64,000 nucleotides of DNA from an uncultured Candidatus Saccharibacteria bacterium (GCA_964553275.1 CAZKKG010000001.1:36993-100992); one strand, 5' to 3'. Counted from the first letter of the stretch, positions 4,298-21,044 are shown. Numbers and translations are program-made. The notes: a model not told the origin generated them from the sequence alone.

Positions 4298-5050
4298 TTA
4301 AATTTTATTATCAGAAAAATGTCCCAATTCCTGAAGTAAAAAAGAGTAATAATATTCCGAAACCTCTTTTAACTCTTCAAGGTGGTCCTTCTTCATTCTT
4401 ACTTTGTAAAGTAACGCTCTGTCTTTTTTTAAAATTACTCCTAATATTTTAAGAAAATCCAAAGAAACTTTTTTACTTATCTTTTTTTCTCCCCGAGGAA
4501 GGCATTTTTCGCAAATCACTCCTCCTTGTTTGGCATTGAAATACAGAATTCCTGAATTCAATTTTTTCTGGCAAAAAAGGCATTTTTCAGTAGAAGGCCT
4601 AAACCCTACAAAGTCAATAAGATTCCAGAAAAAGTAGTGATATACTTTTAAATCCCGATTCAGCGAATTTCCTTTATTAAGTTCCCGAAAAGTTTTTTCC
4701 AACAAGTTCCAAATATTTTTATCCCTTTCTTGCTCTTCGATTAAATTATCAACTATTTCAGCTGTTTTGTAAGCAATCTTTAACTTTATTAAAGAATCCT
4801 TTATGTTTCTGAAAGATTCAACAGTCTTTGCGTCAGTTAAAGTCTTATGGGTTTTCCCCTGAATAAATTCAATCTCAGTTAGACTAAAAAGATTTAACCC
4901 TCCTCTCAGCTTAGATTTAATCTTTCTTACTGCTTTAGCCAATAAAGCCAGTTTTCCGAATTCTTTGGTATAAATGGTAAAAAATCTATCCGACTCCTTA
5001 AAATCGCGTTCCCCTAAAACAAGTCCCTTCGTTGAATGGTGAATAAACAT
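4298..5050 (-). CDS. recO: DNA repair protein RecO
   Basis: 250 aa. OB-fold N-terminus (KGLVLGERDFKESDRFFTIYTKEFGKL) and C-terminal Cys4 zinc motif (CLFCQKK...CEKC) typical of RecO. Confidence 0.7.
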   Translation of the reverse strand: MFIHHSTKGLVLGERDFKESDRFFTIYTKEFGKLALLAKAVRKIKSKLRGGLNLFSLTEIEFIQGKTHKTLTDAKTVESFRNIKDSLIKLKIAYKTAEIVDNLIEEQERDKNIWNLLEKTFRELNKGNSLNRDLKVYHYFFWNLIDFVGFRPSTEKCLFCQKKLNSGILYFNAKQGGVICEKCLPRGEKKISKKVSLDFLKILGVILKKDRALLYKVRMKKDHLEELKEVSEYYYSFLLQELGHFSDNKI

Positions 5051-5161
5051 ACAAACAAACTAGCGTTTAGCGATTAGCGGTTGGCAAACAATTTTGCTTG
5101 TTGAGGTTTAACCTCGACATCTTAGCGTCGGCCAACTATAGGTTTAACCCCAGCAGATTCT

Positions 5162-8100
5162 CTAAAGTTTTTTAATTGCAATCCAAAGCATTTCCTTGTC
5201 AATATTAACTTCTCTCTCTATATTAAAAACACCACTTTTTCTTTCCTTTAAGATAAATTCCTCCGCCTTGGTTTCCTTTAAAACAAAGTCTTTTGAGTTT
5301 TCTAAAGCTTTATTCAAATTACCGCTTCCAGAATAAACTATTGAAATCTTATCCTTGGGTTTTAGTTTTGCCGCCTTGCGCATTTGCTGAACGTATCTGA
5401 GAACTTCCCTTGCTGTCCCTTCGCGTTTAAGCTCAGGGGTAATTTTTGTATCAAGTTTTACATCTTTTTTGATGGTATTATCAAAAACTATTTCTTTGAC
5501 ATTTATTTCTTCCCTAATCAAGTCCAGCAATTCTTTTTCAAACCCTGCTATTTTCTTCTTAATAATCAACCTCTTTAAAGGTTGGCGTACCTTTATTCCT
5601 GCAGACGATCTCTCAGCTAAACTAAGAGTTATAATTTCCCTTAGTCTTTCCATGTTCTGATTAAGTTTTTTATCAATCAATCTTTTGTCTGCTTTGGGCC
5701 AGTCGCTTAAATGAACGCTCTGCGTTTTATCCTTTGAACTCTTCACTTCCTGAAAGATATATTCGCTCAGAAAAGGAACAAATGGAGCGCTAAGATTGCT
5801 TAGAGTCAAGAGAATAAAGCCTAGAACTTGAGAAGCCTTTTTCAACTCCTGTTCTGTTCTCGGTTTCTGAAACCTTCTCCGGGATCTCCTGATATACCAT
5901 TGAGAAAAATCCTCAACCGTAAACTTCTCAAGGGCTCTGGCAGCAGAAATGATGTCATAACGATTCAACAGCTCGGTAACTTTTTCGGTCAGCTCATTTA
6001 ATTTTGACACAATCCACTTATCCAACAAATCCTTGTCTTTAACATTTATATTTAATCCGATATCTGCCTTCAAAGCAGAAGTCGTGTAGGTCTTAAAAAA
6101 GAAACAGCAGTTCCAAAAAGTCATGATAAATCTTTTCAGGCAATCTTCAACATCTTTATCTTTAAATGATTTACTATCACAAACTTGATTAATGGTATAA
6201 AAATACCAGCGAAGGGCATCGGCCCCATATTTATCAAAGATTTCAGAAGGTCTTACAATATTGCCTTTTGACTTCGACATTTTTTCTCCTTTTTCATCCA
6301 AAACGGGACCGACAGAAACTACATTCCTATACGGAGCATTAAGTCCAAGCAAGGTAGAAATAGCCAACAAAGTGTAATACCAGCCCCGAGTTTGATCAAT
6401 CCCTTCCGAAATAAAATCTGCAGGGAAAGAACGGGGAGGATTAACTTTCCCATCTTTTAAAGAGATGTAACCGTCCTTTGATGTTTTTTTAATTTCTTTG
6501 GCATTAAACGGAAAATGAACTTGAGCAAAAGGCATAGCGCCCGAATCAAACCAACAGTCAATAACATCTGGAACTCTTTTCATTTTTTTTCCGCATTCAG
6601 GACAATTAAATTCTATTTTATCAATGAACGGTCTGTGAAGATCCAAGTCCATATTGTTGTCATAAGGAAGATTTTTAAACTCTATCTTCTCAAATTCTCC
6701 GACATCTAATTTATATTTCTTGCGGAAAGAGAAGAACTCTTCATTTGAAACTCCTTTTACGGCTACCCTGAGCATACTTAAAGGCAATTCATGACTTATT
6801 ATCAAGATATTTTTACCCTTATACTTTTTCTCTATTTCTTTTAAAAAACCATAAACTCTTTTTTTAACATCAGTATAATTTTCCCCTTTAGGAAACCGCT
6901 TTTCAAAAATTTCTTCCAAATATTTACCGTAATATTGATAGGCTAATTTAACCGGTTTACCATTAAAGATCCCTGCATCAAATTCTCTCAATCTTTTATC
7001 AAATTTCGGAGAGATATCAAGCTCTTTTCCAACTATTTCTGCTGTTTGTTTGGTTCTTAATAAATCGGATGAAAAGATAATATCTATTTTTTTGCTCTTA
7101 AATCCTTTTGCTATTTTCTTAACTTGTTCTTTCCCTTTATTAGTTAACGGACATTTATTTTTTTCAGGCCAGCAACAAACAATATTTTTCTGATTTCTCA
7201 AACTATGCCCGTGCCGCAGAATATAGTAAGTGTTTACACTAACCTTTTTAGAGATTAAGTCTTTTATACTGCCCATTATCTCTCCATGTCCGCATTCCTT
7301 ACATTCCCAAATGGGCAAGGGTGTGCCCCAATATCTTTCTCGAGAAAGGGCCCAGTCTTTCAGCTCCCTTAACCACTCTCCAAACCTTCCCTCTTTTAAA
7401 TGACTCGGCACCCAATTTATCTTATTGTTGTTTTCAATAAGCTTCTGTTTTACCTGCTGCATATTAATAAACCAGCCCTGCTTGGCATAATAAAGCAAAG
7501 GAGAATGACACCTCCAACAGAAAGGGTAGTCATGCTCGTATAGTTCCTGAGTAAAAAGAAGGCCTTTATTCTTAAGATAATTTACAATTATAGATTCTGT
7601 TTCCTCGTCTTTCACATATCTTCCGGTAAGTTCTTCTTTAATTCCTTTTATAAACTTCCCTTCTTCGTTAACCGTATGGAAAGTCGGCAATCCTATTTTC
7701 TTGCCCAAAAGGAAATCTTCTTCTCCATACATTACTGCAGTGTGCACAACACCGGTTCCTTCATTGGAAGTAACAAAATCAGCAGGGTAAATTTTATAAG
7801 ATGTTGAAGTTTTTAATTGTTTTATGTCAAACAAAGGTTCGTATTCTAATCCTACCAATTGAGACCCTTTAATGATTTGAATGTTCTTCCATTGTGACTG
7901 AGCACCCTTGAATTTTTGACAGTAATTTTCAGGAAAAACTTTCTTTTTTATCATTTCCTTAAAATTATTCAAACCTAAAATAATACGATGGTTTTTCTTC
8001 TCCGGATCAGGAATGATTATATATTGGGCATTGGAATTAACAGCAAGAGCAACATTGCCGGGCAAGGTCCAGGGAGTAGTAGTCCAGGACAGGATAGAAG

Positions 8101-8746
8101 TGTTTTTCCATTTTGGGTCTGAAGATATTATATTGAAATTGATATAAACCGAATTCTCTTTAACTTTCTTATAACCCATGGCAACCTCATGACTGGAAAG
8201 AGCGGTTCCGCACCTCGCACAATAAGGAACAACTTTATACCCTTTATAAACTAACCCCTTTTGATAAATTTGTTTTAAAATCCACCAGACGGTTTCAATA
8301 TAATCCGTCGTGTAAGTGATGTAAGGATTTTTCATATCCATCCAGAAGCCGGCTCTTTCGGTTACTCTTTCAAAATCTTTTTTGTAAGTCCAGACTGATT
8401 TTCTACATTTTTTATTGAATTTACTAATGCCGTACTTCTCAATATCCTTTTTATTCTTAAGCCCCAATTTCTTTTCTATCTCAAGCTCCACAGGAAGACC
8501 ATGAGTATCCCAACCCGCTTTTCTCTCAACTTTAAATCCTTGCATGGTTTTATACCTGCAGACAAAATCTTTAAAAATCCTAGCCAAAACATGATGTATC
8601 CCGGGTCTGGCATTGGCCGTAGGGGGTCCTTCATAAAAAATAAAATCAGACGCTCCTTTGCGTTGTTTTATGCTCTTTTCAAAGATTTTGTTCTTATTCC
8701 AGAATTTTAAGATATTTTCTTCTGTTTTAGGAAAATTCATTCGCAT
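5162..8746 (-). CDS. ileS: isoleucine--tRNA ligase with embedded histidine-phosphatase-like insertion
   Basis: 1194 aa. HIGH-region (PPTANARPGIHHVLARIFKD), KMSKS (KMSKSKGN), zinc knuckles WECKECG ... CPECG and DCWFDSG. About 190 aa between the zinc-knuckle halves carry RHG (YILRHGHSLRN) and ISHELP motifs of the histidine phosphatase superfamily. Confidence 0.9.
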   Translation of the reverse strand: MRMNFPKTEENILKFWNKNKIFEKSIKQRKGASDFIFYEGPPTANARPGIHHVLARIFKDFVCRYKTMQGFKVERKAGWDTHGLPVELEIEKKLGLKNKKDIEKYGISKFNKKCRKSVWTYKKDFERVTERAGFWMDMKNPYITYTTDYIETVWWILKQIYQKGLVYKGYKVVPYCARCGTALSSHEVAMGYKKVKENSVYINFNIISSDPKWKNTSILSWTTTPWTLPGNVALAVNSNAQYIIIPDPEKKNHRIILGLNNFKEMIKKKVFPENYCQKFKGAQSQWKNIQIIKGSQLVGLEYEPLFDIKQLKTSTSYKIYPADFVTSNEGTGVVHTAVMYGEEDFLLGKKIGLPTFHTVNEEGKFIKGIKEELTGRYVKDEETESIIVNYLKNKGLLFTQELYEHDYPFCWRCHSPLLYYAKQGWFINMQQVKQKLIENNNKINWVPSHLKEGRFGEWLRELKDWALSRERYWGTPLPIWECKECGHGEIMGSIKDLISKKVSVNTYYILRHGHSLRNQKNIVCCWPEKNKCPLTNKGKEQVKKIAKGFKSKKIDIIFSSDLLRTKQTAEIVGKELDISPKFDKRLREFDAGIFNGKPVKLAYQYYGKYLEEIFEKRFPKGENYTDVKKRVYGFLKEIEKKYKGKNILIISHELPLSMLRVAVKGVSNEEFFSFRKKYKLDVGEFEKIEFKNLPYDNNMDLDLHRPFIDKIEFNCPECGKKMKRVPDVIDCWFDSGAMPFAQVHFPFNAKEIKKTSKDGYISLKDGKVNPPRSFPADFISEGIDQTRGWYYTLLAISTLLGLNAPYRNVVSVGPVLDEKGEKMSKSKGNIVRPSEIFDKYGADALRWYFYTINQVCDSKSFKDKDVEDCLKRFIMTFWNCCFFFKTYTTSALKADIGLNINVKDKDLLDKWIVSKLNELTEKVTELLNRYDIISAARALEKFTVEDFSQWYIRRSRRRFQKPRTEQELKKASQVLGFILLTLSNLSAPFVPFLSEYIFQEVKSSKDKTQSVHLSDWPKADKRLIDKKLNQNMERLREIITLSLAERSSAGIKVRQPLKRLIIKKKIAGFEKELLDLIREEINVKEIVFDNTIKKDVKLDTKITPELKREGTAREVLRYVQQMRKAAKLKPKDKISIVYSGSGNLNKALENSKDFVLKETKAEEFILKERKSGVFNIEREVNIDKEMLWIAIKKL

Positions 8747-8887: not shown

Positions 8888-9382
8888 ATGTCTAATTACT
8901 TATTTGATAAAATTGAATTAAAATATAACTTTCAGGTGGTTGAAAGAAGAAAATTTTACACATCTGCCCAGCCCGGCAAGGAATTTCTCTCTTATCTAAA
9001 AGACAAGTATGGAATAAAAACGATAATTAATTTAAGAAATAAAACTAAAAACTTTGAAAGAAATTTCGCAGAAAGCCAAAAAATCCATTTAGTTCATATT
9101 CCTTTAATACCTTTATTGAAAAACCCAAATCAGAAAAAGATACTTTCTTTCTTGAGGGTGTTCAGGCAGAAAAATGAACTCCCGGTGCTTATGCATTGCC
9201 GGCAAGGCAAGGACAGATCCGGCGTAATGAGAGCGCTTTTTCATCTTTATTGCCAAAAATGGCCTTCTGAAAAGATATTTCAAGAAATGAATCGAAAGAA
9301 TGTTAACCTTTACTGGAAAATATTTACAAAGGTGAATTGGAAAAAATTTAAAGAGATTGAATACTATGAAAATCTTATCTGA
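8888..9382 (+). CDS. protein tyrosine/dual-specificity phosphatase family protein
   Basis: 164 aa. CX5R P-loop HCRQGKDRSG. The 3' end overlaps smpB by 26 nt. Confidence 0.7.
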   Translation: MSNYLFDKIELKYNFQVVERRKFYTSAQPGKEFLSYLKDKYGIKTIINLRNKTKNFERNFAESQKIHLVHIPLIPLLKNPNQKKILSFLRVFRQKNELPVLMHCRQGKDRSGVMRALFHLYCQKWPSEKIFQEMNRKNVNLYWKIFTKVNWKKFKEIEYYENLI

Positions 9383-14588: not shown

Positions 14589-17500
14589 CTATCTACCTCT
14601 TAATAATTCCTTTATTCCTTTTACCAATTCCGAGAAAGTCTGAGAGATATTGGCCAGTCGACCTTTTATATTCCTTAATATTAATGGTTCCTCTTGCTCC
14701 TGCTCAGTAATACTAAACTTACCAGACCAATTTCCAACAAGCCCAGTGGAGTTAATAATTACTATTTTATAATCATCTGCAGGGTCAACTGAACCATTTA
14801 AGGAAGTACCTACTTCCCAAGAATACTTACCTAGAGAAGCAGAAACATTCTCTGCTATTGTCTTTCTATCACCTCCTAAATACGGACCTATTGAAATAGT
14901 AATTAGTCCCTCTCCCTCTGCCTGCCATGTAATATCATGAGTATCTCCGATATACCATCTGTCTCCTCCCTTAGGCGAAGTAATATTAACTGAAGTAACA
15001 AAGTCAACTGTAAAATATCCGTTTAGAATATCTTCAACAGCCGTCCTTGTTTCTGTAGAATCTAATACCTCTTTCAGTTTAATCTTGTATTTTACAGGAA
15101 GAGTTGAAAAGGTTGAAAATATATCAGATTGGCTGGGAACCCAAGAAAGACCAGCCGTTCTTTCAGAAACTGTCATTATCTTTTTCCAATCATCAATTTG
15201 GTTTCCATTATTGTCGTAACCTCCAAGAGAAATATCTATTTCACTTCCCGTCCAGTTGCCTTTTTCCCAATCAATATACAAGTATTCGTTTTTAGTTATT
15301 TGTTCTCCTCCTTTAGGCGAGGTAATGATAATAAAGGGAGATTCTTCTATAGAAGGAGGTTCTTCGATAACTTCAACAATAACGGAATCTTTAGTTGTAT
15401 TATCACTCTCATCGGTAACAACGAATTCAATAGTATAAGTCCCTGCTTCACTATAACTATGAGTAAACGTTACAAATATATGGTTATTCGAATCTATTGT
15501 ATATTCATCTGGATTTGCTATCTCAGATACGTCTTCATAACCCCAAGATACTGTACAAGTTAAAGATTCATTTTCCGGATCATGCATTTCAATTATCCAA
15601 GTTCCTTTCTCATTTGTTTCAAGTTGAGCAGGAGACTGAATGCTATCTATGACAGGAGGAAGATTCCCAGGCGGTTCAGATACGATGCTAAAATAGTTAT
15701 CTGAATCATCGCTATAGAAATGAGAGCCTTCTGTGCATCCAACAACAATTTTATAGCGGGCATCCGGATCAATATCGCTTGATATCTCCCAGGAATAAAA
15801 ACCTTGAGAAGCAGAAATATTCGAAACTATCGTTTTTCTCAAACTTAGACCATAGAGATAAATTGTTACCTTATCTAGTCCATTTGATTCCCAAGTAATA
15901 TCGTATGTTTCTCCGATTACCCATTCCTCTCCTCCGTTGGGCGAGATAACGGTAAGAAGGGTTTCAAAATCAATGGTAAAGTAATCATCTGAAACATCTT
16001 CAATAATATCAGTTTCGCCATTTGTTTCTTTTATCTTAATCTTGTATTCATCAGGGAAGGTTGAAAAACTTGAAATTACAGAATCGTTAATACGGGGCAG
16101 CCAAAATATAAATTCTCGATCAGCAGAAACACCTGCTTGAATCACTTTCCAATCATCAATCTGTTTTCCATTCTCATCGTATCCGGCAAGAAGAATATCT
16201 ACTTCTTTTTCCTCCATTTCTACTTGCTCCCAAACAATTCTGGATGATTTTGTCACACGAAATATTCCTCCGTTAGGAGAAACAACGGTTATAGAAGGAG
16301 CAACAACAAAGTCAACTGTAAAATATCCGTCTGAAATGTCTTCGGCAGCCGTCCTTGTCTCTGTAGAATCTAATACCTCTTTTAATTTGATATTGTATTT
16401 TACAGGAAGAGTTGAAAAAGTTGAGAATATGTTAGATTGGCTGGGAACCCAAGAAAGACCGGCTGTTCCTTCAGAAACTGTAATTATTTTTTTCCAATCA
16501 TCAATTTGGTTTCCATTCTCACTATAACCGCCAAGGGAAATGCCTACCTTATTTCCTAACCAATTATATTTTTCCCAATTAATATATAAATACTCATTTT
16601 CAGTTATTTGCTCACCCCCTTTTGGCGAAGTAATAACAATGGAAGGGTCAAAATCAATAGTAAAGTAATCATCTGAAACATCTTCAATAATATCAGTTTC
16701 GCCATTCGTTTCTTTTATCTTAATCTTGTATTTTACAGGAATAGATGAAAAACAAGAAGGTAGATTTAAAGGAGCATTGGATGGTGTCCAGTAGAAATAT
16801 CCTTGTGCCGTAGAAACTTCTGTCTCAATTAACTTCCAATCATCAGTCTGATTTCCATTACTGTCATAACCGCCAATAAAGACATCAAGCTGTGAATATA
16901 TATTGCCTTCTGAAGTCCACAAAATTTTGTGCTTTTCTTTCCCGCTCCATTTTTCTCCTCCATTAGGAGAGATAACAGTAAGAGAATCTTCTACGGGGTA
17001 TAAAAATTCGCCGTAAAAATTAGTATGTCGGGAATCGTGATAAAATACTGGCCACTCATTGTCCTCAGACTTTCCATCCATATCCCAAACCAATAGACTG
17101 CCAGCTGTAGTATATGTCATTAGTTCATTTTTTCCATCGCCATCTATATCACCCATTGGAGAGCCTGTCCCAAAAACAGTCTGGTTTAGTTTTACAGGAA
17201 AATTCTGTACAACAGACCCGTCCGAGCTATAAGCAAAAAGTTCGGACAATTCTCCTCTGGGAACGTTAATATCACCGTCTACAATGGCTATTGAGATTTC
17301 GTTTTCAATGTCTGTATCCAGGTCACCAAGTAAGGGATGACTTGAAGAATCGCCTCCGTCTCGGTAACTGTAATCGCGAATAGGGAACCCATCTGCTTCT
17401 TGCCATCCTTCATCTCTTTTTTCAAACAAGTGCAGACCTTGGCCATAATTTGTTATCATTGCTATTTCTAATTTTCCATCTTTATCAATATCACCTACAC

Positions 17501-20500
17501 TTAAACCATTAATATGCGAAAGATTTGCGATAGGAATAAAATCTAACACAGAACCATCCCAAGAGTAGATATAAATTCCATCTAATGTCCCTAATACTAT
17601 TTCTGTTTCATCATCATCATTCATGTTACCTAAAACACTCTTAACGTATTTTCCATGCGCCTTGGGCCAACCATCAAGAATATTTCCTTTGTGATCCAAT
17701 AAATAGAGCTCATTAAAAAATATTGATATTAACTCTCCGTATCCGTCATTATTTAAATCGGCCACGGCAATTGACTCTTTTGGAAAGGAGCCACCAGGAT
17801 AGGCAGGAAATCCTTCTAAATAATTTCCGTTTACATCTACGGCATACACATACCCTGACAAGTTGTAAAACATCATTTCAAGCTCCCCGTCTTTATTTAT
17901 ATCTTCTATGCTTACTGGACCTATATAGGGATACTTAGAATCAGAGAGTTTTTTGGGCCATCCATCCCAATAAGTTCCATCGTAATTCAGAATATGCAGA
18001 TATCCAGCATTGTCTCCAACTACTATTTCATTGTGCCCGTCTCCATTTAAATCAGCTACAGCCGGTCCCGACTGCATCATCCCGCCCCAAATATTATAGG
18101 GATTTGTTATTTCTCTTGGCCAACCGCTTACATAAGAACCATCATGAGTAAAAACATGAATATTTTTACCATAAGCAATAATTATATTATCTTGTCCGTT
18201 GTTGTTTATATCTGCTAAAGTTGGCTGTCCGTTGAGAGGTAATACATATCCTTCAAACCCTTCTATAGTATCTATTTCTTTTGGCCATCCTTCATGAATA
18301 GCCGGATCAATGTATATTTTAATATCCTCTACTTGCTCCTGCCTGTCTTCAAAATAGACTGTTAATTTTAAATAGTGATACCCGGGATTAGTAAAAGACG
18401 CAACATTCCATTTTCCTAAAACATTTTGATTCACTGGGTAATTTCCATTGTCCGTGAGAATTATTTCTTTGTCAGTACAATTGACATAATTTTCATCACA
18501 CCATTCAATGGTATAATTTTTAAAACCAAAACCCATTACCTTGCCTTCTATATTTATTTCCTCCCAAGTCGGGAGCACTTCTCGAGCCTGTCGAAGCTGC
18601 CAATTAGTCCAATTGGCCTCTCCTCTGATATCTTTAGGATAGGTTATTTTTATGTTATCCAAATTAACGAACCCAAATTCTTCGCTTTCCTCAGTCCCCA
18701 TTTTCGCAATTAATTTCAATGTATATTCCCCATCTTCCAGATATCTGAGATCCCAATTGCACAAAGTATCATCTGTAACAACAGCTAGACCGCTGCATAT
18801 TTCTATCCAATCTTTAGCTTCTGGATCTTTCCCGTTCACGTAATAAAGATTAAAACTATCACCAGCAACGGTTCCCTTGACGTTAAAATTCTCACCATCA
18901 ATTTCTACCGGGTTATATAAAACAGCTACAGAAGGTTTTTCAGCTTGAACTGCTTTTAAGACGTCTATCATGCCATAACCTTGAGTATATATGTCATAAC
19001 CTAAGTCTAAGGCAGTATTTCTTAAAACCATCTTTATTTCTTCCGGACTCCAGTCGGGATGGGCTTGTTTAATTAAAGCTGCTGCTCCGGCTATATGAGG
19101 GGTGGCCATGGAGGTTCCAGAGATGGAAGTATGCTCGTCGTCAAAACATTTCTTATCATTCCAAGCAGAGTCCCACTGAGAAGAACAGATTTCAACACCC
19201 GGGGCAACAACGTCCGGTTTGACTCCTGCAGCAGTGGGCCCTCTAGAACTAAACTTTGCGATTTTATCATCGCAATATGTATGAACCCCCACTTGATCTG
19301 TCATACAAGAAGCTCCTACGGTCAACGCTTTTCTGGCAGTGCCAGGAGAACCTATGGTTTCATACCCGTTACCGGAATTTCCAGCCGCTACTACTGCTAT
19401 GACTCCAGCCTTAACAGCCTCGTCTACAGCTAATGATGGTGGATCATCCTGATGGCAATATACAGGATTAAAACATCCTAAGCTCAAAGAAATAATATCA
19501 GCATGATCTGAATAATCACCATCCTGATTAGGATCAACTGCTATTTCAATGCCTGCTATGACTTGATCAAATGTTCCTGAACCAGAATCATTCAAGACCT
19601 TATATGCCAATAATTTAGCATCGGGCGCAACTCCTTTTAAATTTCCATTACTGGCAGCAATTCCAGCACAATGAGTCCCGTGACCATGATCATCCATTGG
19701 GTCTGAATCATTGTTGATAAAATCATAACCGCCAATCACCTTACATCCGCTCCCCAAACACCCGCCCAAATCAGGATGGGTATAATCTATACCCGTATCT
19801 ATTACAGCAATAGTTATTCCCTCACCTGTATAGCCCAAATCCCAAACTTCATCAGCCCGAATTAATGAAACAGAATCCGTTAACAGAGCTCTGACTTTAT
19901 AGTTTGGAAAGACTTCTTTAATATAATCTAATTTTTCAATCTCTTCTGCTTCTTCCTGAGAAATATCTAAAGCGATACCGTTGAAAACATGTTTAAATTC
20001 TCTTTCAATTTTCTGATCAAATCCAGAAATCTTTGCCTTGAGTTGAGTCTTATAGGATTGAAATGTCAAATTTAAATCACTTCTATAGGAATCAAATTGA
20101 GCACTTTCTTGAACAGAGGTTATTGCCTTCTTTTCTGCTTGATTATGAAGTTCTTGCCACTCACTTATAAGTGATTTCTCTTTAAATTGTATTATATAGC
20201 CTTGGAACTCAGATTCTTCAAGCCCGGCTTCTTCTGGAATAAGTTCCAGAGACTCTTGAGGAATATCCTCAAAAGTTTCATAAACTCCTGCCTCAGCTTT
20301 CTCCGTTAAATATATTCCTGCGTGCTCCCCAGACAGTATAGTCACTTCTTGTTGGGTTTTCTGTTGAGTTTCAGCAGTTTGCGATTCTTGACTCTCGTTT
20401 GCTTCTGGCAATGGTTCTTTCTTTCCTAATGATGCCTCCTCTCCACAGGAAACACATTGATCCTTGTAAAGCTCATTTAGCTTTTTCAAAGTCATGGAAC

Positions 20501-20957
20501 CTACAAACCCAGTAGCTTCTTCTATCTTCCATGGTACTAATATATCTTCTCTGTACTTCTTTTGAAAACGATTCACTGCTTTTTCGGTTAATGGTCCAAA
20601 ATACCCACTCACTATCCCTTCGGGATAGATTTCCGGGTCTTGTTTTAACATCTGTTGAAGTTTTTCGACCTGCTCTCCGCTGTCTCCGTATCTTAACGTT
20701 GATGTCAACGGCTTAATTTCTTGTTCTGGCTTCTCATTGTCCTGAGATTTATTAGAATCTTCCTCGTCTTCACCTACCTCCTTTTGATCCTCCACTGGTT
20801 GCTGCTGGAGCTGATCAAATCTTTGTTGAATTTGAACAATTTGCTCTTTGAGTTCTTCAATTGTAATTGTTTTTGTTGTTGCTTTAACAACATCCGAGAA
20901 AAAGAAGCAAACGACAAGAATTACTAAAAGATAGAGAAAGGTTTTCTTGTTTTTCAT
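14589..20957 (-). CDS. giant secreted subtilisin-like (S8) serine protease with PG-binding, FG-GAP, Kre9/KNH-like and PKD-like repeats
   Basis: 2122 aa. Signal peptide. Peptidoglycan-binding-like segment (LRYGDSGEQVEKLQQML...GYFGPLTEKAV). Subtilase triad (AVIDTGIDYTHPDLGG; HGTHCAGIAAS; GTSMATPHIAGAAAL). Five or more FG-GAP-like DxNxDGxxE repeats. Six ~105-aa repeats with I.SP.GG..W..G....I.W signature. One PKD-like module. Confidence 0.85.
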   Translation of the reverse strand: MKNKKTFLYLLVILVVCFFFSDVVKATTKTITIEELKEQIVQIQQRFDQLQQQPVEDQKEVGEDEEDSNKSQDNEKPEQEIKPLTSTLRYGDSGEQVEKLQQMLKQDPEIYPEGIVSGYFGPLTEKAVNRFQKKYREDILVPWKIEEATGFVGSMTLKKLNELYKDQCVSCGEEASLGKKEPLPEANESQESQTAETQQKTQQEVTILSGEHAGIYLTEKAEAGVYETFEDIPQESLELIPEEAGLEESEFQGYIIQFKEKSLISEWQELHNQAEKKAITSVQESAQFDSYRSDLNLTFQSYKTQLKAKISGFDQKIEREFKHVFNGIALDISQEEAEEIEKLDYIKEVFPNYKVRALLTDSVSLIRADEVWDLGYTGEGITIAVIDTGIDYTHPDLGGCLGSGCKVIGGYDFINNDSDPMDDHGHGTHCAGIAASNGNLKGVAPDAKLLAYKVLNDSGSGTFDQVIAGIEIAVDPNQDGDYSDHADIISLSLGCFNPVYCHQDDPPSLAVDEAVKAGVIAVVAAGNSGNGYETIGSPGTARKALTVGASCMTDQVGVHTYCDDKIAKFSSRGPTAAGVKPDVVAPGVEICSSQWDSAWNDKKCFDDEHTSISGTSMATPHIAGAAALIKQAHPDWSPEEIKMVLRNTALDLGYDIYTQGYGMIDVLKAVQAEKPSVAVLYNPVEIDGENFNVKGTVAGDSFNLYYVNGKDPEAKDWIEICSGLAVVTDDTLCNWDLRYLEDGEYTLKLIAKMGTEESEEFGFVNLDNIKITYPKDIRGEANWTNWQLRQAREVLPTWEEINIEGKVMGFGFKNYTIEWCDENYVNCTDKEIILTDNGNYPVNQNVLGKWNVASFTNPGYHYLKLTVYFEDRQEQVEDIKIYIDPAIHEGWPKEIDTIEGFEGYVLPLNGQPTLADINNNGQDNIIIAYGKNIHVFTHDGSYVSGWPREITNPYNIWGGMMQSGPAVADLNGDGHNEIVVGDNAGYLHILNYDGTYWDGWPKKLSDSKYPYIGPVSIEDINKDGELEMMFYNLSGYVYAVDVNGNYLEGFPAYPGGSFPKESIAVADLNNDGYGELISIFFNELYLLDHKGNILDGWPKAHGKYVKSVLGNMNDDDETEIVLGTLDGIYIYSWDGSVLDFIPIANLSHINGLSVGDIDKDGKLEIAMITNYGQGLHLFEKRDEGWQEADGFPIRDYSYRDGGDSSSHPLLGDLDTDIENEISIAIVDGDINVPRGELSELFAYSSDGSVVQNFPVKLNQTVFGTGSPMGDIDGDGKNELMTYTTAGSLLVWDMDGKSEDNEWPVFYHDSRHTNFYGEFLYPVEDSLTVISPNGGEKWSGKEKHKILWTSEGNIYSQLDVFIGGYDSNGNQTDDWKLIETEVSTAQGYFYWTPSNAPLNLPSCFSSIPVKYKIKIKETNGETDIIEDVSDDYFTIDFDPSIVITSPKGGEQITENEYLYINWEKYNWLGNKVGISLGGYSENGNQIDDWKKIITVSEGTAGLSWVPSQSNIFSTFSTLPVKYNIKLKEVLDSTETRTAAEDISDGYFTVDFVVAPSITVVSPNGGIFRVTKSSRIVWEQVEMEEKEVDILLAGYDENGKQIDDWKVIQAGVSADREFIFWLPRINDSVISSFSTFPDEYKIKIKETNGETDIIEDVSDDYFTIDFETLLTVISPNGGEEWVIGETYDITWESNGLDKVTIYLYGLSLRKTIVSNISASQGFYSWEISSDIDPDARYKIVVGCTEGSHFYSDDSDNYFSIVSEPPGNLPPVIDSIQSPAQLETNEKGTWIIEMHDPENESLTCTVSWGYEDVSEIANPDEYTIDSNNHIFVTFTHSYSEAGTYTIEFVVTDESDNTTKDSVIVEVIEEPPSIEESPFIIITSPKGGEQITKNEYLYIDWEKGNWTGSEIDISLGGYDNNGNQIDDWKKIMTVSERTAGLSWVPSQSDIFSTFSTLPVKYKIKLKEVLDSTETRTAVEDILNGYFTVDFVTSVNITSPKGGDRWYIGDTHDITWQAEGEGLITISIGPYLGGDRKTIAENVSASLGKYSWEVGTSLNGSVDPADDYKIVIINSTGLVGNWSGKFSITEQEQEEPLILRNIKGRLANISQTFSELVKGIKELLRGR

Positions 20958-21044
20958 AATATTATTTATTTCTTGTTAGTTTTTGACAAAAGTTGATAAC
21001 TTGCTTCAATATATAACTTTCTTTCATATATTAAAAGGTAAATC

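What the first reader, a model, noticed from the sequence alone, without database searches (positions are those of the whole stretch)
6679..7249. Isoleucyl-tRNA synthetase carries an internal histidine-phosphatase (PGAM-like) domain
The 1194-aa IleRS is unusually long for a bacterial IleRS. Between the conserved WECKECG zinc knuckle and the DLHRPFID...CPECG...DCWFDSG block sits a ~190-aa insert: YILRHGHSLRNQKN ... DLLRTKQTAEI ... ILIISHELPLSML. RHG then an R about 60 aa later then a second His in xSHE is the motif order of branch-1 histidine phosphatases (phosphoglycerate mutase/SixA-like). No intein splicing motifs (C/S...HN) flank the insert, so it is not an intein and would be translated in-frame as part of the synthetase. 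Such a fusion is not a known IleRS feature. It could add a regulatory or editing-like phosphatase activity, or be a structural decoration specific to this lineage.
Basis: partly seen in the sequence, partly recalled or inferred. Interest (0 to 1): 0.7.

Follow-up and report, generated by a model that had tools for sequence, protein, structure and literature searches.

The report
Phosphatase domain nested inside isoleucyl-tRNA synthetase
The isoleucyl-tRNA synthetase of this tiny-genome (Patescibacteria) bacterium really does carry a complete, apparently active histidine-phosphatase enzyme inside one of its surface loops; related bacteria either have the same nested form or keep the phosphatase as a separate gene right next to the synthetase gene, which points to an undescribed working partnership.

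Summary
The ORF at window 5162-8746 (-) is a complete type-2 IleRS of 1194 aa (TIGR00392, 903 bits). About 190 aa (residues 505-690, window 6677-7234) match Pfam His_Phos_1 at E = 2e-35 and fold as a PhoE/PspA/CobC-like phosphatase (pLDDT 92.5).

The domain replaces an ~8-aa loop between the two Cys pairs of the CP3 zinc hairpin. The catalytic set Arg511-His512, Arg564, Glu588 and His652 is kept in 120-121 of 121 homologues (Glu588 is Glu or Asp). It is neither an intein nor a misassembly: the identical protein is on 14 independently assembled contigs.

New findings:
- In 25 of 26 informative cases, close stand-alone homologues lie directly upstream of an insert-less ileS, mostly as argS-hisphos-ileS-recO. 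Fused genomes have argS-ileS[insert]-recO.
- Other CPR lineages carry different His_Phos subclades at three further IleRS sites.
- Single examples are fused to ValRS, ArgRS, TsaC and a QueC-like enzyme. All these partners split ATP into AMP and PPi.

My best inference, not shown, is a tethered phosphatase that removes a product of adenylate formation (PPi or AMP). No paper describing this was found. I rate it a new variant of a known kind, interest about 0.7.

The parts
5162..8746 (-). ileS: complete type-2 isoleucyl-tRNA synthetase with a nested domain, 1194 aa (public gene calls start at the second Met, giving 1192 aa)
   Evidence: ORF. TIGR00392 at 902.9 bits against cutoff 621.4. Full-length AF2 model has pLDDT 84.3 and pTM 0.74. 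It superposes on P. megaterium IleRS2 8C8V (TMt 0.80) and T. thermophilus 1ILE (TMt 0.87).
6677..7234 (-). Nested histidine-phosphatase (His_Phos_1) domain, residues 505-690 (Pfam match 508-675 = window 6722-7225)
   Evidence: Pfam E = 2e-35. AF2 pLDDT 92.5, pTM 0.89. Foldseek top hits are PspA 4IJ6 (TM 0.82), PhoE 1H2E/1EBB and CobC 6E4B/6NRU. Boundaries match those of the stand-alone homologues.
7208..7216 (-). Arg511-His512-Gly513: the RHG motif, with His512 the predicted phospho-accepting nucleophile
   Evidence: R 121/121, H 121/121, G 119/121 in the homologue alignment. Coordinates checked.
7055..7057 (-). Arg564, second phosphate-pocket arginine (SSDLLRT motif)
   Evidence: 121/121 conserved.
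6983..6985 (-). Glu588, predicted general acid/proton donor (LRE motif)
   Evidence: E in 104 and D in 17 of 121.
6791..6793 (-). His652, second catalytic histidine (SHE motif)
   Evidence: 120/121 conserved.
7163..7174 (-). Cys525-Trp526-Pro527-Glu528: clade-specific pocket motif that replaces the usual 'QG..D' of PhoE/CobC-type enzymes
   Evidence: P527 and E528 121/121, W526 105/121. The WPE core of the motif is also present in stand-alone, ArgRS-fused and TsaC-fused relatives.
7289..7309 (-). First half of the CP3 zinc hairpin, W480-E-C482-K-E-C485-G (equivalent to T. thermophilus Cys461/Cys464)
   Evidence: Alignment to 1ILE. C482 and C485 are invariant. CP3 and its zinc motif in T. thermophilus IleRS are described in PMC7191050.
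6593..6643 (-). Second half of the CP3 zinc hairpin: DLHRPFID (702-709) and C715-P-E-C718 (equivalent to T. thermophilus Cys502/Cys504)
   Evidence: C715 and C718 are invariant.
7328..7360 (-). CP2-CP3 linker KDWALSRERYW (463-473), which in yeast IleRS lines the pocket for the tRNA CCA end and reveromycin. It ends 8 residues before Cys482.
   Evidence: Sequence. The homologous yeast segment ARDWNVSRNRYWG is described in PMC7955072. Spatial closeness of the insert to this pocket is inferred, not measured.
8591..8602 (-). Class I signature motif in its non-canonical form GIHH (GXHH instead of HXGH)
   Evidence: Sequence. G49 and H51 are invariant and H52 nearly invariant in 43 homologues. The meaning of GXHH is taken from bioRxiv 10.1101/2023.01.31.526100.
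6269..6283 (-). KMSKS motif (822-826), intact
   Evidence: Invariant.
7715..8086 (-). CP1 editing-domain signature motifs, WTTTPWTLPGN (221-231) and GTGVVHTAVMYGEED (330-344), intact
   Evidence: Conserved columns.

Best explanation
SHOWN. The segment is a complete histidine phosphatase of the PhoE/PspA/CobC type. It is nested in frame in the distal loop of the CP3 zinc hairpin of an otherwise intact type-2 IleRS. It has its own active site: His512 as nucleophile, Arg511, Arg564 and His652 holding the phosphate, and Glu588 as proton donor. That site has been kept under selection in over a hundred diverged homologues.

It is the fused form of a partner gene. In sister Paceibacteria the orthologous ~190-aa phosphatase is a separate gene, mostly wedged between argS and ileS and often abutting or overlapping ileS. 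In fused genomes that slot is empty and the domain sits inside ileS.

Other CPR lineages have inserted other His_Phos subclades at three further IleRS sites. Close relatives are also fused to ValRS, ArgRS, TsaC/Sua5 and a QueC-like PP-loop enzyme.

INFERRED. Every fusion partner is an enzyme that splits ATP into AMP and PPi through an adenylate. The phosphatase therefore most likely hydrolyses a phosphate-bearing co-product of that chemistry. PPi is the physiologically sensible candidate, because its removal pulls activation forward. AMP is the closest in chemistry to the CobC substrate alpha-ribazole-5'-phosphate. Tethering the domain next to the synthetic site would raise its local efficiency.

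Sub-confidences: real and catalytically competent nested phosphatase, about 0.95. Dedicated partner of IleRS and other adenylate-forming enzymes, about 0.7. Product removal (PPi or AMP) as the job, about 0.35.
For: Identity and fold.

Conserved catalytic residues: R511, H512 and R564 in 121/121, H652 in 120/121, E588 as E or D in 121/121.

Insertion point between the zinc ligand pairs.

Intact host enzyme.

Not an artefact: 14 contigs, four sources; 120/120 homologues with PF00300; at least 435 GTDB species genomes with a relative, including the complete genome CP179889.1.

Gene neighbour versus nested domain: of 80 GTDB loci, 61 have the insert inside ileS and 19 have a stand-alone gene immediately upstream of an insert-less ileS. 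Six more stand-alone homologues, down to 34% identity, show the same arrangement.

Synteny: argS-(gap of at most 24 nt)-hisphos-ileS-recO against argS-(8-145 nt)-ileS[insert]-recO.

Independent insertions: sites A, B, C and D with distinct subclades only 24-37% identical to the window domain, all retaining RHG, R, E and H.

Other partners: ValRS P0133; ArgRS P0141, in two assemblies and with ileS absent from the locus; TsaC P0159 and QueC-like P0217, neither next to ileS.

The CP2-CP3 linker just upstream of the insert lines the tRNA-CCA pocket in yeast IleRS.
Against: - No substrate has been tested. No member of the histidine-phosphatase superfamily is known to me as an inorganic pyrophosphatase. 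Branch-2 relatives do cleave inositol pyrophosphates (own knowledge).
- I could not obtain model coordinates, so the distance and orientation between the two active sites are unknown.
- The ValRS, ArgRS, TsaC and QueC fusions are single cluster representatives from short metagenomic contigs, except ArgRS, which is on a 70-kb contig in two assemblies. The ArgRS fusion could be a trivial read-through with the upstream neighbour.
- I could not test whether these genomes lack a canonical pyrophosphatase. No family-I PPase signature occurs in the window or in the held loci, but that covers only a small part of each genome.
- The cap region of the domain (residues ~598-620) is variable and has indels. 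That fits a small common ligand or broad specificity, but does not point to one.
- The domain is very basic (net charge +18, pI 9.8), which could equally suit an RNA substrate.
Confidence: 0.4

Rival explanations
1. Hitch-hiking housekeeping phosphatase. The domain is an ordinary metabolic phosphatase (for example a phosphoserine or sugar-phosphate phosphatase) whose gene lay in the argS-ileS operon and was captured in tolerant surface loops. The fusion secures co-expression in a streamlined genome but has no mechanistic link to aminoacylation.
For: The best structural matches are generalist or metabolic enzymes: PspA, PhoE, CobC and the riboflavin HFP. No NCBIfam equivalog cutoff is reached. 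Tandem arrays of 2-4 copies occur, which argues against a strict geometric requirement. The ArgRS fusion can be explained by loss of a stop codon between neighbours. Conserved gene order alone need not mean functional coupling; ribF-ileS in proteobacteria is an example (own knowledge).
Against: Insertion into internal loops cannot arise by simple read-through, yet it happened at four or more sites with different His_Phos subclades in different CPR lineages. Among the 150 closest cluster representatives, every recognisable fusion partner is an adenylate-forming enzyme, and two of them are not near ileS. The stand-alone gene stays glued to ileS down to 34% identity.
Confidence: 0.25
2. Macromolecule-directed phosphatase. 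The domain dephosphorylates the tRNA 3' end (3'-phosphate, or the 3'-pyrophosphate left by RelA-SpoT-type toxins) or the synthetase itself after attack by a HipA-like kinase toxin, and so restores charging.
For: The domain is strongly basic (net +18 over 188 aa, pI 9.8; the stand-alone form has pI 10), more so per residue than the rest of IleRS. CP3 follows directly after the linker that lines the tRNA-CCA pocket. The superfamily includes protein phosphatases such as SixA, Sts-1 and PGAM5. Toxins that pyrophosphorylate tRNA ends or phosphorylate aaRSs exist (own knowledge).
Against: TsaC and QueC-type partners do not bind tRNA ends (own knowledge). Such toxins are not specific to IleRS. The domain has a PhoE-sized cap rather than the open SixA-like site. 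There is no hit to defence-system models. A Lys-rich composition is common in low-GC CPR proteomes.
Confidence: 0.15
3. Built-in immunity module. The phosphatase, like the GNAT domains found in some IleRSs, inactivates a phosphorylated natural inhibitor or antimetabolite aimed at the IleRS active site.
For: The host enzyme carries the GXHH motif linked to mupirocin hyper-resistance, which suggests a history of inhibitor pressure. One relative has a GNAT inserted at site C beside a His_Phos. NCBIfam has a family of GNAT-containing IleRS (NF040702). GNATs such as MccE detoxify aminoacyl-adenylate mimics (own knowledge).
Against: No phosphomonoester inhibitor of IleRS is known to me. The conserved pocket binds a terminal phosphate, not the phosphodiester or phosphoramidate of adenylate mimics. 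The trait is near-universal and ancient in a whole class, unlike typical resistance genes. There is no PADLOC hit.
Confidence: 0.1
4. Non-catalytic decoration. The fold is kept as a structural, tRNA-binding or regulatory module and the phosphatase chemistry is irrelevant.
For: Some inserted copies in other lineages deviate: RHA instead of RHG in P0174, and 1 of 121 homologues lacks His652. The domain evolves faster than the core: mean pairwise identity 0.54 against 0.71 (N part) and 0.65 (C part).
Against: All four or five catalytic positions are essentially invariant across 121 sequences at ~55% overall identity, and also across the independently inserted subclades.
Confidence: 0.04
5. Artefact: a chimeric assembly, an intein or a mobile-element remnant.
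For: GC content is slightly lower over the insert (0.29-0.31 against 0.33-0.41 in the flanks).
Against: The identical protein lies on 14 contigs from four independent sources. The architecture is conserved in at least hundreds of species and in one complete genome. There is no Hint/intein profile hit and there are no flanking repeats. The reading frame is continuous.
Confidence: 0.01

Closest known systems
Small broad-specificity branch-1 histidine phosphatases: G. stearothermophilus PhoE/YhfR (1H2E, 1EBB), Hydrogenobacter metal-independent phosphoserine phosphatase PspA (4IJ5/4IJ6), CobC alpha-ribazole-5'-phosphate phosphatase (6E4B, 6NRU)
   Same: Same fold (TM 0.75-0.83, rmsd 2.0-2.7 A). 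Same catalytic set RHG / Arg / Glu / His. Similar size of about 185-210 aa. The expected chemistry is a phospho-histidine intermediate on a terminal phosphate.
   Different: Only 21-27% identical. No equivalog cutoff is reached: CobC 97 against 163, PspA 89 against 350, archaeal dPGM 90 against 225. The 'QG..D' pocket loop is replaced by a clade-specific C-W-P-E motif. The domain is very basic. It is either nested inside an aaRS or encoded next to one. The substrate is unknown.
IleRS with an added N-acetyltransferase domain (NCBIfam NF040702, ileS_w_GNAT)
   Same: A precedent for an IleRS that carries an extra, unrelated catalytic domain. One relative of the window protein (P0268) has a GNAT in the site-C loop in addition to a His_Phos.
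   Different: The window protein scores 325 bits against a cutoff of 1999, so it is not a member. The extra domain belongs to a different superfamily. I could not inspect where the GNAT sits in NF040702 members.
CP1 editing domain of class Ia synthetases (IleRS, ValRS, LeuRS)
   Same: A second hydrolytic active site nested in the Rossmann fold through an insertion in the connective polypeptide region, so that one polypeptide has two catalytic centres.
   Different: CP1 is universal and ancient, acts on mis-acylated tRNA, and has an unrelated fold. The His_Phos insert is lineage-specific, sits in CP3 (or in three other loops), also exists as a free-standing gene, and performs phosphoryl rather than acyl transfer.
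Type-2 IleRS with the non-canonical GXHH signature motif (Brkic et al., bioRxiv 10.1101/2023.01.31.526100; PDB 8C8U-8C8W)
   Same: The host enzyme is an IleRS2 with GIHH and with the ARD3/DUF5915 C-terminal domain. The best structural match is P. megaterium IleRS2.
   Different: Described IleRS2 enzymes have a short CP3 loop and no phosphatase. A 2026 survey of 96,219 IleRS domain architectures does not contain the word phosphatase.
Bifunctional RNase H / CobC-like acid phosphatase (M. tuberculosis Rv2228c type, NCBIfam NF005567)
   Same: A precedent for a branch-1 histidine phosphatase fused to a nucleic-acid enzyme. The window domain hits the phosphatase half of that model (73.9 bits).
   Different: That is an end-to-end fusion rather than a nested insertion. 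The partner is a different enzyme. The score is below the cutoff (326).

Membership tests
Histidine phosphatase superfamily, branch 1 (Pfam PF00300 His_Phos_1) | Profile match above the curated gathering score | tested here: met
   122.6 bits against 21.7, E = 2e-35, residues 508-675 covering profile positions 2-170 of 194.
Histidine phosphatase superfamily, branch 1 (Pfam PF00300 His_Phos_1) | RHG motif with the nucleophilic His, a second Arg, an acidic proton donor and a second His, in that order | tested here: met
   R511-H512-G513, R564, E588 and H652 are present and conserved in 120-121 of 121 homologues, with E588 as Glu or Asp.
Histidine phosphatase superfamily, branch 1 (Pfam PF00300 His_Phos_1) | Alpha/beta fold of the dPGM/PhoE type | tested here: met
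   AF2 pLDDT 92.5. Foldseek probability 1.00 and TM 0.75-0.83 to PspA, PhoE and CobC.
Histidine phosphatase superfamily, branch 1 (Pfam PF00300 His_Phos_1) | Phosphatase or mutase activity through a phospho-histidine intermediate | not testable with these tools
   This needs an enzyme assay with wild-type and H512A proteins.
Cofactor-dependent phosphoglycerate mutase (dPGM; GpmA, GpmB, archaeal dPGM) | Equivalog-level profile score | tested here: not met
   NF038349 89.7 against 225; NF002901 (GpmB) 68.6 against 261; NF002339 38.2 against 316. True dPGMs align with lower TM (0.70-0.75) and are 230-250 aa long. 'PGAM-like' therefore describes the fold only.
Alpha-ribazole phosphatase CobC (TIGR03162) | Equivalog-level profile score | tested here: not met
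   97.1 against 162.9 for the window domain. The site-D domain of another lineage (P0174) does exceed the cutoff, at 198.7.
Metal-independent phosphoserine phosphatase PspA (NF045917) | Equivalog-level profile score | tested here: not met
   89.3 against 350, although PspA is the best structural match.
Isoleucyl-tRNA synthetase (TIGR00392), type 2 | Equivalog-level profile score over both halves | tested here: met
   902.9 against 621.4. 1ILE E = 2.7e-237 in two segments, 3-500 and 701-1051.
Isoleucyl-tRNA synthetase (TIGR00392), type 2 | Class I signature motifs HIGH and KMSKS | tested here: met
   KMSKS at 822-826. HIGH is present in the documented IleRS2 variant GXHH (GIHH, 49-52).
Isoleucyl-tRNA synthetase (TIGR00392), type 2 | CP1 editing domain motifs; type-2 C-terminal domain | tested here: met
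   WTTTPWTLPGN and GTGVVH...D are present and conserved. Anticodon_1 and DUF5915 hits. Structural match to IleRS2 8C8V.
Isoleucyl-tRNA synthetase (TIGR00392), type 2 | Isoleucine-specific aminoacylation activity | not testable with these tools
   Inferred from the equivalog score and intact motifs only.
Mupirocin-resistance IleRS MupA / MupB (NF000257, NF000258) | Exception-level profile score | tested here: not met
   806 and 768 bits against a cutoff of 1900.
IleRS with GNAT domain (NF040702) | Exception-level profile score and presence of a GNAT domain | tested here: not met
   325 against 1999. No acetyltransferase Pfam hit in the window protein.
Intein | Hint/intein domain, Cys/Ser/Thr at the N-junction, and His-Asn followed by Cys/Ser/Thr at the C-junction | tested here: not met
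   No Hint or intein family among the Pfam hits. The junctions read ...VSVN|TYYILRHG and ...KIEFKNLPYDNNMD|LDLHRP, with no HN-C/S/T.

The most novel reading that the evidence does not exclude
CPR bacteria have repeatedly and independently wired a histidine phosphatase onto IleRS2, and occasionally onto ValRS, ArgRS, TsaC and PP-loop enzymes, as a local product-clearing site. This would be a tethered pyrophosphatase (or AMP phosphatase) that drives adenylate formation in cells with minimal metabolism. It would give aminoacyl-tRNA synthetases a previously unrecognised accessory activity, and give the histidine-phosphatase superfamily a new biochemical role.
Probability: 0.25. Interest if true: 0.85.

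Novelty: new variant of a known kind. Interest (0 to 1): 0.7.

Why it matters
Aminoacyl-tRNA synthetases are among the most studied enzymes, and their lineage-specific added domains usually mark new functions. In this case a second enzyme has joined IleRS in three ways: as a translationally coupled neighbour, as a nested domain at four different sites, and from different phosphatase subclades. That is the signature of strong selection for physical coupling.

If the coupling serves product removal, tRNA repair or inhibitor defence, it reveals a constraint on translation in ultra-small symbiotic bacteria that is not seen in model organisms. It also assigns a context, and a testable function, to a large unannotated family of 'histidine phosphatase family proteins' in Patescibacteria.

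It is of practical use too. It gives a natural map of loops in a class Ia synthetase that tolerate insertion of a whole domain: CP3, the loop after HYPF, and the start of the anticodon-binding domain.

Tried and rejected
- **Assembly chimera.** Rejected: the identical protein is on 14 contigs from four sources, and the architecture is conserved.
- **Intein or mobile element.** Rejected: no Hint profile, no junction residues, and no flanking direct or inverted repeats beyond chance-level 12-22-mers.
- **True phosphoglycerate mutase, CobC, PspA or SixA.** None reaches its equivalog cutoff.
- **Ordinary CP3 variant.** Rejected by the alignment to 1ILE: ~200 aa stand in place of ~8 aa.
- **Anti-phage defence module.** No PADLOC hit for the insert or for the neighbouring PTP-like gene.
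- **A second copy of the phosphatase in the window.** None found with a clade-specific HMM.
- **Canonical pyrophosphatase.** The family-I PPase signature is absent from the window and from all held loci. This is uninformative because only fragments of genomes are held.
- **Split ileS at the insertion site as an evolutionary intermediate.** The one split gene seen (L093) is a frameshift downstream of CP3.
- **NJ trees to count transitions between fused and unfused states.** The states are interleaved, but the trees are unsupported and the short domain gives only weak congruence (Spearman 0.25). The number and direction of events are therefore left open.
- **Literature.** Eight searches and several full-text look-ups found no description of an IleRS-phosphatase fusion. 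A ninth attempt returned only a syntax error and searched nothing.
- **Taxon names for the site B-D proteins.** The cluster look-ups carried none.
- **Geometry between the two active sites.** Could not be measured, because model coordinates are not returned.
Full report
**1. What is there**

The finding lies inside one ORF, window 5162..8746 on the minus strand, 1194 aa. Pfam splits the class I synthetase core (tRNA-synt_1) into two stretches around a His_Phos_1 match at residues 508-675. That match has E = 2e-35 and scores 122.6 bits against a cutoff of 21.7. Anticodon_1 and DUF5915 follow.

NCBIfam identifies the host as ileS (TIGR00392, 902.9 bits against a cutoff of 621.4). Composition over the insert is a little more AT-rich than the flanks, and there are no flanking repeats.

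**2. Exact insertion point**

Against T. thermophilus IleRS (1ILE), query 416-500 aligns with residues 395-479 and query 701 onward with 488 onward. About 200 aa therefore replace an ~8-aa loop.

The loop lies between Cys482/Cys485 and Cys715/Cys718, which correspond to T. thermophilus Cys461/464 and Cys502/504. PMC7191050 describes this region as the CP3 subdomain. CP3 connects CP2 to the second half of the Rossmann fold and carries a zinc motif in the Thermus enzyme. All four cysteines are invariant in the homologues.

The CP2-CP3 linker (DWALSRERYW in the query) ends 8 residues before Cys482. In yeast IleRS the same linker forms part of the pocket for reveromycin and the tRNA CCA end (PMC7955072). 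That the insert sits near the entrance of the synthetic site is an inference.

**3. The host enzyme is intact**

- KMSKS, the CP1 editing motifs and both zinc sites are present and conserved.
- The HIGH motif is GIHH, the non-canonical GXHH form. bioRxiv 10.1101/2023.01.31.526100 links that form to mupirocin hyper-resistance in IleRS2.
- The full-length AF2 model (pLDDT 84.3, pTM 0.74) superposes on P. megaterium IleRS2 (TMt 0.80) and on 1ILE (TMt 0.87).

**4. The insert is a competent-looking phosphatase**

Modelled alone with 30 homologues, it has pLDDT 92.5 and pTM 0.89. It matches PspA (4IJ6, TM 0.82), PhoE/YhfR, CobC and a riboflavin-pathway histidine-family phosphatase. True phosphoglycerate mutases match less well.

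No NCBIfam equivalog cutoff is reached, so it belongs to the superfamily but to no characterised subfamily.

In 121 IleRS sequences at 54-67% identity:

| Position | Conservation (of 121) |
|---|---|
| R511, H512, R564 | 121 |
| G513 | 119 |
| H652 | 120 |
| E588 | Glu 104, Asp 17 |
| G621-E622 | 121 |

A clade-specific C-W-P-E motif replaces the usual QG..D loop. Mean pairwise identity is 0.54 for the insert, 0.71 for the N-terminal part of IleRS and 0.65 for the C-terminal part. The domain is very basic, with net charge +18 and pI 9.8.

**5. Not an artefact and not rare**

- The identical protein is on 14 contigs from Logan, JGI, ENA and NCBI assemblies.
- All 120 best database homologues carry PF00300. 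Those that are named come from Patescibacteria, Parcubacteria, Paceibacterota or Nealsonbacteria.
- A scan of one genome per GTDB species found at least 435 genomes with a relative of the insert. The named lineages include Wildermuth-, Nealson-, Staskawicz-, Portnoy-, Jorgensen-, Wolfe-, Yanofsky- and Colwellbacteria, and one hit is in a complete 647-kb genome.

**6. The key new result: the same gene is either a neighbour or a nested domain**

I mapped the N part, the insert and the C part of the window protein on the 80 retained loci.

- 61 loci have the insert inside ileS.
- 19 loci have a free-standing gene of 187-237 aa. It lies on the same strand, upstream of an ileS whose N and C parts are contiguous.
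- In most of these 19 the two genes abut or overlap.

The free-standing proteins share the clade motifs (NNKYYILRHG, WPE, TGELRKL) and the domain boundaries of the insert. Six more free-standing homologues, down to 34% identity, are also directly upstream of an insert-less ileS. One of them, L093, has ileS broken by a frameshift. One homologue on a short contig is not next to ileS, and one contig is too short to tell. That gives 25 of 26 informative cases.

The wider synteny is the same in both states:

- Unfused: argS-(at most 24 nt)-hisphos-ileS-recO, in 15 of the 18 loci where argS is seen.
- Fused: argS-(8-145 nt)-ileS[insert]-recO, in 26 of 39.

The window itself has smpB, a PTP-like gene, ileS[insert], recO and a DUF7619 protein. 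In rough NJ trees the two states are interleaved, and both occur among 'Nealsonbacteria'. This means either more than one transition or gene transfer. I leave the direction open.

**7. Recurrent, independent fusions**

Among the closest cluster representatives, and among homologues of one variant (P0188), His_Phos domains sit at four IleRS sites:

| Site | Position in IleRS | Examples |
|---|---|---|
| A | Between the two CP3 Cys pairs | The window protein |
| B | After the second Cys pair, before RVPDV.DCWF | P0494, named Peregrinibacteria; P0193 |
| C | After HYPF | P0188, P0392-P0394, P0425; the window protein has a 25-aa low-confidence loop here |
| D | Start of the anticodon-binding domain | Second copies in P0174, P0469, P0485, P0495 |

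The domains at sites B, D and 'A2' are 27-31% identical to the window domain. That is as distant as PspA or PhoE. They carry the classical RHGET..N...RWQG motif. The site-C domains are 36-37% identical. All keep the catalytic residues.

Other fusion partners within the same clade are:

- A ValRS with four copies (P0133).
- An ArgRS with a C-terminal copy, on a 70-kb contig in two assemblies, where ileS is absent from the locus (P0141).
- A TsaC/Sua5 protein (P0159) and a QueC-like PP-loop enzyme (P0217). Neither lies next to ileS.

Except for ArgRS, these are single representatives on short contigs and need confirmation.

**8. How it most likely works**

Shown: there are two complete catalytic centres in one polypeptide, and there is strong, repeated selection for keeping this phosphatase physically or genetically attached to IleRS.

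Inferred: all partners (IleRS, ValRS, ArgRS, TsaC, PP-loop enzyme) split ATP into AMP and PPi through an adenylate. The simplest common denominator is therefore a product of that reaction.

- PPi hydrolysis would pull activation forward and is the physiologically sensible role.
- AMP resembles the CobC substrate.
- The tRNA-end repair idea does not fit TsaC or QueC.
- The hitch-hiker idea does not explain internal insertions at four sites from different subclades.
- The inhibitor-defence idea has only circumstantial support (the GXHH motif, and a GNAT at site C in P0268).

None of these is tested. My confidence in product removal is about one in three.

**9. Comparison with what is known**

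The domain is a member of the histidine phosphatase superfamily, and every testable defining feature is met. It is not a dPGM, CobC or PspA by curated cutoffs. The host is an IleRS2.

Precedents for extra catalytic domains in or beside such enzymes are the CP1 editing domain, the NCBIfam family of GNAT-containing IleRS, and the RNase H/CobC-like fusion of mycobacteria.

I found no paper describing a phosphatase in an aaRS. A 2026 preprint that annotated domain architectures of 96,219 IleRS sequences does not contain the word phosphatase, nor does the AARS Online description.

**10. Verdict**

This is a new variant of a known kind: a synthetase with an added catalytic module. Its evolutionary pattern is unusually informative and its function is unknown but testable. 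Interest 0.7.

Noticed in passing
window 8591-8602 (-), residues 49-52 of IleRS: The class I HIGH motif is GIHH, the non-canonical GXHH form reported to give IleRS2 hyper-resistance to mupirocin. G49 and H51 are invariant in 43 homologues and H52 is nearly invariant.
   Followed up: partly
window 8888-9382 (+): A 164-aa protein with the HCxxGxxRS signature of PTP/dual-specificity phosphatases (Y_phosphatase2, PTP-NADK, E ~6e-14). It is divergent from ileS and overlaps the start of smpB. It occupies the position where relatives have argS (and hisphos). No PADLOC hit.
   Followed up: partly
window 6440-6520 (-), residues 743-769: An extra ~25-aa loop after 'HFPF' with pLDDT below 50. It is absent from T. 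thermophilus IleRS. It coincides with 'site C', where other lineages carry a whole His_Phos or GNAT domain.
   Followed up: partly
P0268 (1066 aa, JGI, 11-kb contig): An IleRS relative with an IS200-like Y1 transposase domain (residues 340-461) inside the CP1 region, a His_Phos in CP3 and a GNAT after HYPF. The protein is probably cut off by the contig end.
   Followed up: no
P0178 / P0391 (1030 aa): An IleRS-like protein in which the CP1 editing domain appears to be missing (N-part profile positions 190-384 absent), while a His_Phos sits in CP3. It scores below the ileS cutoff (296 bits).
   Followed up: no
P0133 (1161 aa, ENA, 2 contigs): A ValRS N-terminal fragment with four His_Phos copies: one after the QWF motif and three after IPVWY.
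   Followed up: partly
L096 / L097 (70-kb contigs), gene 5001-7070: An ArgRS with a C-terminal His_Phos of the window clade. The locus reads smpB | argS::hisphos - recO - DUF7619, so ileS is missing from its usual place.
   Followed up: partly
L083 313-4853: In one relative, a bAvd + reverse transcriptase pair (like a diversity-generating retroelement) and a 1015-aa protein lie directly upstream of hisphos-ileS.
   Followed up: no
L093 2384-5275: ileS is split into 554-aa and 381-aa ORFs by a frameshift downstream of CP3. This is either a sequencing error or a pseudogene.
   Followed up: yes
window 14592-20975 (-): A 2128-aa ORF, the largest in the window. Not examined.
   Followed up: no
record titles: Many Paceibacteria-like loci from one TPA assembly project are titled 'uncultured Candidatus Saccharibacteria bacterium' or 'Gammaproteobacteria'. 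These are probably generic or mislabelled names, so taxon labels from that source should not be trusted.
   Followed up: no
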